A DNA stretch of 63,958 nucleotides, counting the filler, from Kipferlia bialata (lineage: Eukaryota): NCBI GenBank assembly GCA_003568945.1. It is 5 parts of 5 records of this genome, joined end to end, with 100 filler letters (N's around TTAATTAATTAA, not from the genome) between each part and the next. Parts side by side here need not be neighbours in the genome. Positions count along the whole stretch, not along the records: positions 27,647 to 41,358 come from BDIP01000911.1; 4 more parts are not named here. One strand, 5' to 3'. Of this stretch, positions 33,336 through 34,711 are shown piece by piece (positions within the stretch are counted from its first letter, which is position 1; each line of letters begins with the position of its first letter). The position numbers and the translations under genes are program-made. A model generated the notes under the pieces. It worked only from the letters and a program-made list of their open reading frames with translations, ran no database searches and was not told the DNA's origin.

Positions 33336-34711
33336 CTACATGTAATCCTGCACTGCCTCTTCTGGGTGGAACAGAGCCATATGGGCTGAGAGTTAGCCTG
33401 TATATATATATAAATCCATCACAATTACAAATATAGCCATACCTACCCACTCCTCCTTCTCTGTGAAGAAGCCCTTCTCGCAGGACCTGTAGGGACACCG
33501 GCACTGGTGGTACTAGGGTTAGAAGGTGTAGAGGGAGAGCGAGATATAGAATAGTCGTGTAAATAGGTCTTACCCTGTTCTCCTTAATCAGTCTCCTGTC
33601 CAGTCTATCCAGCCTGCTAAACACATGTATATATACTATACATGTATTATTATATGTATTAATATACATGTATCCATACCCTGTTCTCCTTGATGAGTCT
33701 TCTGTCCAGCCTGTCCAGTCTCTGCACCCTGCTGGACAGAAGGGTGGAGAAGGGCAGGGTGGGGTCTAAGGTTAGAGAGCGGTACGACTAATGCTCTACC
33801 TTCTGCACCCTCCATAAATATCCCTGCCACCCTCAGTGCACATGCTAAATTGAATCATATAGTCTATTGTATATAGCAGCTACATAGTAATACATGATAC
33901 CGTAATAATATGTGATATATATACGCATTACCTTCTGCGCCCTCTCTCAGTAGCTCTGCCGCCCTGAGTGTACACACCACATTGAAACATATACTATCCA
34001 CAACTATATTATAGTATATCAGCTAAACACATGCAGCCTAGTATACAATTGCCTTACCCTCTGCACCCTCTCTTAACAACTCTGCTGCCCTGAGTGCACA
34101 GACCACGTTGAAGAAGGGGTCAAAGGCAGCATAGACCTTGAGATGAGCTATAGATAGATTGATTATAGGGAGGGGGGGGAGACAGAGAGACAGAGAGACA
34201 TAGAGAGAGAGAGAGCGTCCTACACATTGAAGACAACATAGACCTGTGGATGAGACATGGAATGATCGACATTATCACAAAGCATCACTGTTACAGTGAT
34301 TCACTGTACATATATCTATGTATCACTATCTTTACCTGCTGCCAATTTTCCAGGGGCCTCCTGTCCCAGTGGCTCACAGTGTAGTATATGCAATACATAT
34401 GGATATATAGTATACATATAGAATAGTCATACACTAATGTGTCACCTGCTGCCAATCCTCGAGGGGCCATCTGTCCCAGTGACTGCCAGAGACCTTGTCA
34501 CACTTGATGGTCTCCTCACCTGACAATAAGGGTGCAGAGGGAGAGAGAGAGAGAGAGAGAGATTCACTGACACACTGGTCAGTCCTCCCCTGGTACAGGG
34601 GTGTAAATGGAAAGAGGGAGTGTGTACTTCGACGTAGTAACTTCGTACCTATGTCCAGGACCTCGCATATCTGCTTCACATTGAGTGTGCCAAAACTGGA
34701 ATTAAGGGTGT

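What the first reader, a model, noticed from the sequence alone, without database searches (positions are those of the whole stretch)
33574..34115. Cleanest evidence: exonuclease echoes that are almost purely synonymous
Exon end 33721-33680 (AGA CTG GAC AGG CTG GAC AGA AGA CTC ATC AAG GAG AAC AGG|GT) versus echo 33615-33574 (AGG CTG GAT AGA CTG GAC AGG AGA CTG ATT AAG GAG AAC AGG|GT): six differences, all silent, both reading RLDRLDRRLIKENR. The upstream exon end FNVVCALRAAELLREGAE versus its echo at ~33932-33987 shows 7 silent codon changes, including double-hit TTG>CTA and TTA>CTG, and 1 replacement. A more distal echo (~33800-33843) is more degraded, suggesting an age gradient.
Basis: seen in the sequence. 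Interest (0 to 1): 0.85.

Follow-up and report, generated by a model that had tools for sequence, protein, structure and literature searches.

The report
Intron echoes of divergent exon alleles
In four genes of a free-living protist, most introns hold spliced-out copies of the neighbouring exon edge that differ from the real exon mainly at silent codon positions, likely because they are leftovers of other versions (alleles) of the gene left behind by faulty DNA repair, which would make these introns a record of past alleles.

Summary
Confirmed. The window is Kipferlia bialata. One DNA contig joins both exons and all three echoes; the mRNA contig splices them out. The focal echoes differ from their exons by 6 silent/0 replacement and 9/1 bases. 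The pattern is wider: 86 echoes in 37 of 57 introns of four genes chosen for their repeats. pN/pS is 0.16-0.20, against about 0.45-0.5 for a neutral copy of a constrained exon (0 of 2000 simulations). Echoes are not alternative exons (6 of 73 give an open frame) and some carry changes at near-invariant residues. Each adds about 110 nt, yet its spacer rarely resembles the adjacent intron (8 of 43). Best reading (0.55): repair or unequal exchange copied about 110 nt from a divergent allele across the splice site, leaving the other allele's exon edge in the intron. No donor allele was found; the laid run shows one haplotype. The layout is known (amphioxus 'mirages', F7 minisatellite), and this scan noted similar repeats in urchins and an annelid. 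I found no paper on the silent-site signature.

The parts
34058..34136 (-). True exon 13 of the exonuclease-like gene (KIPB_004311, P0122); ends ...LLREGAE
   Evidence: RNA joints 34134(+2)/34444 and 33765/34058; my gene model equals P0122
33930..33986 (-). Donor-side echo 1 of exon 13 (55 nt + GT): 9 silent bases, 1 replacement
   Evidence: skipped in the RNA contig
33798..33854 (-). Donor-side echo 2 of exon 13 (55 nt + GT): 7 silent and 8 replacement bases, no stop or indel
33680..33765 (-). True exon 14 (ends RLDRLDRRLIKENR)
   Evidence: RNA joints 33765/34058 and 33512/33680
33572..33615 (-). Donor-side echo of exon 14 (42 nt + GT): 6 silent, 0 replacement
   Evidence: skipped in the RNA contig
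34334..34379 (-). Donor-side echo of exon 12 (exon 34519-34446): 5 silent and 3 replacement bases
34757..34848 (-). Two acceptor-side echoes of exon 11 (AG + 24 nt): 3 and 2 silent, 0 replacement
33336..38970 (-). 16-exon host gene, likely a WRN/DEDDy-type 3'-5' exonuclease with a C-terminal C2H2-like motif (motif reading recalled); 27 echoes in its introns
27735..32579 (+). Phenylalanyl-tRNA synthetase beta gene, 3' part (KIPB_004310, P0121); 23 echoes
   Evidence: my model equals P0121
30812..31799 (+). Array of 9 donor-side echoes of PheRS exon 13; silent variants fall on two lineages that both depart from the present exon
466..8203 (+). Gene A (20 exons, unknown membrane-type protein); 31 echoes
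   Evidence: my model, open 547-codon frame, all GT-AG
13955..16805 (-). Kinesin motor gene, 5' part (family read from recalled motifs); 5 echoes
   Evidence: my model

Best explanation
The echoes are spliced-out half-exons (an exon edge with its splice site), and they are likely pieces of divergent alleles of the same gene, left in the intron when repair or unequal exchange copied about 110 nt from a homologous chromosome across an exon-intron boundary. SHOWN: echo and exon are adjacent in DNA; the mRNA contig uses the outermost splice sites; echoes differ from exons mainly at silent sites; units are about 110 nt; donor echoes always precede acceptor echoes; donor echoes rarely have an acceptor in front. 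INFERRED: (1) A break falls near an exon edge and one end invades a divergent homolog, pairing in the conserved exon. (2) Synthesis runs into the donor's intron, which does not match the recipient's, so annealing fails and end joining closes the break. (3) One allele's exon edge stays coding; the other stays in the intron with its GT or AG, differing from birth at allelic, mostly silent, sites. (4) Half-exons are ignored by splicing, so they are tolerated, while whole-exon copies or acceptor-before-donor orders are purged. (5) The echo then decays neutrally, and repeated events lengthen the intron by about 107 nt each. The use of Dmc1 without Rad51A or NHEJ in fornicates may favour this route.
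For: pN/pS 0.16 for the 50 nearest echoes (72 silent/38 replacement); 0 of 2000 simulations of a neutral copy of a constrained exon fell that low (min 0.21). pN does not rise with pS (rho 0.01 vs 0.40 simulated, P 0.003-0.004), as expected if silent differences are present at birth and replacements come from later decay. Variants that cannot lie on the exon's own line of descent are still 16 silent/16 replacement vs 0.27 neutral (p=0.005). In the PheRS array the present exon sits between two lineages of silent variants. At pN 0.034 a same-chromatid duplicate should keep a near-identical spacer, yet only 8 of 43 spacers beat controls, and 0 of 10 for echoes identical in their exon part (masked test; unmasked, 2 of 14 donor and 2 of 13 acceptor near-identical echoes). 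Some echoes carry replacements at near-invariant PheRS residues (H151N, G355D, H361Y; exon residue in 55-58 of 60 homologs), so echoes are not kept functional. Only 6 of 73 echo splice sites would give an open frame, with no preference for multiples of 3. Branch point-AG precedes 3 of 44 donor echoes vs 85 of 410 random positions. Donor echoes precede acceptor echoes in 34 of 34 pairs. Replacements are milder than random (BLOSUM, n=54, p=0.007). Tandem duplication by end joining of a failed SDSA intermediate is shown in C. elegans (PMC8654963, passages). Metamonads lack NHEJ, and fornicates lack Rad51A and carry two Dmc1 paralogs (PMC8516963, passages). Dmc1-type residues aid repair from templates at 20% or more divergence (PMC6719624, abstract and section 17).
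Against: No donor allele was seen. The DNA and RNA contigs laid on 31100-37000 at 88% or more show no other letters (tables partly cut). The proteins have single-member clusters, and two metagenome pattern scans found 0 matches. The model needs silent-site allele divergence of about 0.2-0.3, in places 0.6, at or above the highest values I recall for any species. Spacers are less alike than that divergence predicts, so fast intron turnover or new filler DNA must be added. The 13 echoes that lost their splice site show pN/pS 0.64 with low pS (0.14), which also fits selection on intact echoes, although the score threshold biases short hits. Junction microhomology is inconclusive (p=0.064). The GC-direction contrast (silent 48:41, replacement 33:16) is not significant (p=0.15). 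Evidence for a fixed copying length is weak (echo vs spacer rho -0.24, p=0.048, n=70). The DNA-repair step is inferred from other organisms; POLQ in K. bialata was not checked.
Confidence: 0.55

Rival explanations
1. Echoes are born as identical same-chromatid duplicates; the exon is later overwritten by short gene conversions from divergent alleles, and intron spacers turn over very fast.
For: Gives the same silent excess and the same lack of a pN-pS link. 14 of 86 echoes are identical to their exon. 8 of 43 spacers do resemble the adjacent intron.
Against: Echoes identical in their exon part have unrelated spacers (0 of 10), which needs intron change far faster than pN 0.034 implies. It still needs a pool of very divergent alleles.
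Confidence: 0.15
2. Echoes are under ongoing purifying selection for amino-acid content because deletion or gene conversion often swaps them into the coding position (silent back-up cassettes).
For: pN/pS is 0.16 in echoes that keep the splice site vs 0.64 in those that lost it. No stops among 86 echoes; replacements are conservative. Amphioxus mirage arrays are length-unstable (PMC3087553).
Against: A swap rate high enough to purge replacements would also erase silent differences (my inference), yet pS reaches 0.6. pN is uncoupled from pS. Echoes carry changes at near-invariant residues. Only about 3 stops were expected, so their absence is weak evidence.
Confidence: 0.12
3. Ordinary neutral tandem duplicates (plain mirages): the silent bias comes only from selection on the true exon.
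For: The layout is known (PMC3087553). Part of the bias is expected this way (silent fraction about 0.43).
Against: The observed silent fraction is 0.60-0.65 (p 8e-7 to 1e-6); 0 of 2000 simulations reach the ratio. Off-backbone variants are still biased. The focal echo has 0 replacements where about 15 are expected. It would need exons to mutate several-fold faster than introns, whereas the spacers diverge faster.
Confidence: 0.08
4. Echoes are translated in part of the transcripts through alternative splice-site use or as alternative exons.
For: Would explain the codon-level constraint and the splice-site contrast. One echo may have been recruited as exon 4 of the exonuclease-like gene (public model P0122).
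Against: The RNA contig skips the focal echoes. 6 of 73 give an open frame. Acceptors are depleted before donor echoes (3 of 44), and 5 of 29 acceptor echoes have a G-GTR donor nearby. Contigs drop rare isoforms, so low-level use is not excluded.
Confidence: 0.05
5. Assembly artefact that joins two haplotypes or strains in tandem.
For: The species is reported as diploid by k-mers (PMC5874029), and the unit size is close to a read length.
Against: One separately assembled contig bridges both exons and three echoes with 0 differences at even depth; the copies share no long exact word.
Confidence: 0.01

Closest known systems
Amphioxus 'mirages' (Adh3, globins BflGb6/BflGb9, PGBD5; PMC3087553 and PMC3902484, passages read; the original Adh3 paper PMC117041 was not held)
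   Same: Tandem copies that span an exon-intron boundary and repeat the splice site, on either the 5' or the 3' side; splicing is undisturbed; a copy can in principle be recruited as a new exon.
   Different: Mirage units are minisatellite-like and 81-100% alike as units (BflGb6). Here only the exon part and splice site are alike, and the spacer is mostly unrelated (35 of 43). Differences follow the codon frame; 'synonymous' does not occur in the main text of either paper. Echoes lie in 37 of 57 introns of four genes, in a protist.
Human F7 intron 7 37-bp VNTR with 5' pseudo-sites (PMC1557585, abstract read)
   Same: The first donor is used and identical downstream donors stay silent.
   Different: One locus with identical donor sites and donor side only; the abstract reports no silent-site divergence.
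Tandem duplications from failed SDSA closed by Pol theta end joining (C. elegans helq-1, brc-1; PMC8654963, passages read)
   Same: Proposed route: an extended end fails to anneal and is joined, duplicating the copied tract.
   Different: There the template is the sister, so copies are identical, sizes run 100 bp-10 kb (median about 1 kb), and no link to exon edges appears in the passages read. Here the template would be a divergent homolog and the unit about 110 nt.
Mutually exclusive exons from tandem exon duplication (recalled)
   Same: Duplicated exon sequence with low pN/pS inside an intron.
   Different: Those copies have both splice sites and are translated; echoes are half-exons that are spliced out.

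Membership tests
Mirage minisatellites | Repeat unit spans an exon-intron boundary and duplicates the splice site | tested here: met
   73 of 86 echoes include the GT or AG
Mirage minisatellites | Occurs at both 5' and 3' boundaries | tested here: met
   44 donor and 29 acceptor echoes reach their site
Mirage minisatellites | Minisatellite-like units, alike along the whole unit including the intron part | tested here: not met
   Spacer similar to the adjacent intron in 8 of 43; 0 of 10 for exon-identical echoes
Mirage minisatellites | Normal splicing, copies not in mRNA | tested here: met
   RNA contig X2 record 10 skips the echoes, with 0 other letters in the pieces shown; rare isoforms cannot be seen in contigs
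Mirage minisatellites | Copy-number instability between alleles or cells | not testable with these tools
   Only one haplotype seen, contigs only
F7-type donor VNTR | Most upstream donor is the one used | tested here: met
   RNA joints at 34058 and 33680 use the exon's own donor
F7-type donor VNTR | Near-identical fixed-length units | tested here: not met
   Units vary 82-132 nt (10-90%) and spacers differ
SDSA plus end-joining tandem duplications | Microhomology or templated insertions at the junction | tested here: inconclusive
   Proxy test p=0.064
SDSA plus end-joining tandem duplications | Dependence on Pol theta or failed annealing | not testable with these tools
   Needs genetics; POLQ in K. 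bialata not checked
Mutually exclusive or alternative exons | Each copy has its own acceptor and donor and keeps the frame | tested here: not met
   3 of 44 donor echoes have a branch point-AG; 6 of 73 give an open frame
WRN/DEDDy 3'-5' exonuclease (host gene) | Exo I-III acidic motifs in an RNase H-like fold | tested here: inconclusive
   WRN chains at E 0.22 with motif I and III stretches aligned; no Pfam hit; model pLDDT 37.5

The most novel reading that the evidence does not exclude
Kipferlia introns grow by a repair ratchet that works between very divergent alleles. Recombination can pair only in exons, runs off into a non-matching intron and is patched by end joining, so each event buries another allele's exon edge in the intron. 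By the length fit, about half of the intron DNA in these four genes would come from such units. A single genome would then hold a layered sample of past alleles of a hyperdiverse population, and the process would drive intron size and occasionally create new exons.
Probability: 0.4. Interest if true: 0.87.

Novelty: new variant of a known kind. Interest (0 to 1): 0.68.

Why it matters
If echoes are captured alleles, silent diversity, codon-level selection and recombination history could be read from one cultured genome, and K. bialata would rank among the most diverse eukaryotes known. It would give a concrete, countable mechanism for intron lengthening (intron length about 126 + 107 nt per echo here) in the intron-rich fornicate, and tie it to the group's unusual repair kit (no NHEJ, Dmc1 without Rad51A). 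The introns are also a natural test of splice-site choice: 73 strong decoy sites, with the outer one used wherever RNA was laid, in a reduced spliceosome (87 of 174 proteins; PMC6679479). If instead echoes are under selection, that would be a silent-cassette system in housekeeping genes.

Tried and rejected
No whole genome is held, so no genome-wide count was possible. The four genes were picked because self-BLAST showed repeats; 37 of 57 is not a genome-wide rate, and scaffold 41459-55166 gave no such hit. One further echo-bearing gene (about 24400-26700, minus) was seen but not scored. The first two echo scans missed the focal echoes through a reset bug and a complexity filter; this was fixed. 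The silent/replacement counts are invalid because my exon coordinate shifted the frame; one search is the corrected run. Search for other isolates: the intronless kinase has no relative above 37%, PheRS none above 49% among representatives, clusters are single-member, and two degenerate metagenome scans were empty. Reads were laid only on 31100-37000, as contigs; the upstream exons and the possible recruited exon 4 have no RNA test. The look-up of sequencing runs listed no holder on record as RNA; X2 is a guess, though it gives spliced joints. Not significant: codon clustering (p=0.35), GC direction (p=0.15), exon-commoner-codon bias (59:39, p=0.054) and microhomology (p=0.064). The single-sequence structure model was unusable, so no fold search was run; the atlas was unreachable. 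Literature searches returned nothing on silent-biased echoes or on such repeats in Kipferlia. The word 'duplicat' is absent from the genome paper's main text. Supplements were not read (the genome paper's, and Additional file 4 of PMC3087553, could bear on the novelty claim).

Full report
Setting. The window is five scaffolds of about 13.7 kb joined by spacers. Exon queries retrieve NCBI proteins KIPB_004310 and KIPB_004311 of Kipferlia bialata at 100%, a free-living fornicate reported as intron-rich and diploid by k-mers (PMC5874029, passages). I built four gene models by hand. The PheRS-beta model equals the public protein P0121, and the host-gene model equals P0122 after two splice sites were adjusted to it. 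All 57 introns are GT-AG. The host protein is only weakly an exonuclease: WRN chains at E 0.22 with motif I and III stretches aligned, no Pfam hit.

The observation. A distal echo at 33854-33800 has 7/8. DNA contig X1 record 4 covers 33243-34165 unbroken with no differences at even depth, so exons and echoes are neighbours on one molecule; X1 may be the assembly's own source. A spliced contig in run X2 joins 34058 to 33765 and 33680 to 33512 and matches the exon copies, so the echoes are intronic. No second allele appears at 88% or more in 31100-37000, though the tables are partly cut and contigs drop rare variants.

How general. A frame-blind ungapped scan of each intron against its two flanking exons found 86 echoes in 37 of 57 introns (50 of 114 edges), against 2 of 1262 non-adjacent control pairs. 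The genes were chosen for showing repeats. Echoes are 17-57 nt (median 32), and 73 keep the GT or AG. Donor echoes lie before acceptor echoes in 34 of 34 pairs. The repeat unit is tight (median 110 nt, quartiles 94-122), and intron length is about 126 + 107 nt per echo.

The silent bias. Distinct variants: 111.5 silent, 74.5 replacement, pN/pS 0.20. Nearest echo per edge: 72/38, ratio 0.16. Without the focal three: 0.21. The two genes with public models: 0.18. Wrong frames give 1.5 and 2.8. A neutral copy of a constrained exon predicts about 0.45-0.5; none of 2000 simulations fell to 0.16, and the simulated pN-pS correlation (0.40) is absent (0.01). Variants that cannot be placed on the exon's own line of descent are 16 silent/16 replacement (p=0.005 vs 0.27). 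In the nine-copy PheRS array two lineages of silent variants both depart from the present exon. So the echo sequences diverged while coding, or are still selected.

Are echoes used? Probably not. Using an echo's splice site gives an open frame in 6 of 73 cases, with no frame preference. Donor echoes lack upstream acceptors (3 of 44 vs 85 of 410 random positions; the pattern finds 55 of 57 true acceptors). Several PheRS echoes change near-invariant residues. Against this, the 13 echoes without a splice site show pN/pS 0.64, and replacements are milder than random (p=0.007).

Are they plain tandem duplicates? Mostly not. A same-template duplicate with pN 0.034 should keep a near-identical intron part. 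Only 8 of 43 spacers resemble the adjacent intron, and none of 10 whose exon part is identical (masked test; a few show short flank likeness unmasked).

Mechanism. One cause accounts for both facts: the two copies come from different alleles. Failed strand annealing followed by end joining makes tandem duplications in C. elegans (PMC8654963, passages). Metamonads lack NHEJ, and fornicates use Dmc1 paralogs without Rad51A (PMC8516963, passages). Dmc1-type residues tolerate divergent templates (PMC6719624, abstract and section 17). I infer that an end broken near an exon edge invades a divergent homolog in the conserved exon, copies about 110 nt into an intron that does not match, and is joined back, leaving one allele's edge and splice site as the echo. 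Unequal exchange between alleles gives the same product. Half-exons are ignored, as at F7 (PMC1557585, abstract). Nearer echoes are younger (13 of 18 arrays). The weak points are that no donor allele was found, that the needed silent diversity (0.2-0.3, locally 0.6) is extreme, that spacers are less alike than even that predicts, and that microhomology and GC-direction tests were inconclusive.

Known relatives and novelty. It works like a mirage but fails the whole-unit similarity test, so I class it as a variant, not a member. Earlier scan notes describe similar repeats in urchins and a silent-biased array in an annelid; I did not test their sequences. Seven literature searches found no account of the silent-site signature or of these repeats in Kipferlia; supplements were not read.

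Verdict. A real, gene-wide and statistically firm oddity with a known layout and an unexplained divergence pattern. Allele capture 0.55, other allele-based route 0.15, selected back-up 0.12, plain neutral 0.08, translated 0.05. Interest 0.68.

Noticed in passing
window 38024-37727, minus strand: In the public model P0122 the peptide DMPG is doubled across exons 3 and 4, and the 24 nt after the exon-3 donor resemble the end of exon 4 followed by a second GT. This looks like an echo recruited as a new exon, i.e. intron gain as modelled in PMC3087553 Fig. 7. Not tested with RNA.
   Followed up: partly
window 55267-63958 vs 46475-55166: The last scaffold piece is an exact reverse complement (8692 of 8692 nt) of the end of the previous scaffold: redundancy or an inverted duplicate.
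   Followed up: partly
window 39606-40757, plus strand: Intronless choline/ethanolamine kinase (P0001) with best relatives at 37% or less, unusual in an intron-rich genome.
   Followed up: partly
window 41459-55166: Genes here have short introns and gave no echo hit in the self-BLAST, so echoes are unevenly spread among genes.
   Followed up: no
window 24400-26700, minus strand: A further intron-rich gene with donor-side echo arrays near 25690-25830 and 25030-25220; not scored.
   Followed up: no
all 57 introns: 55 of 57 acceptors have a branch-point-like motif 2-9 nt before the AG, and nearly all donors follow an exon G; many acceptor echoes run straight into a CT microsatellite.
   Followed up: partly
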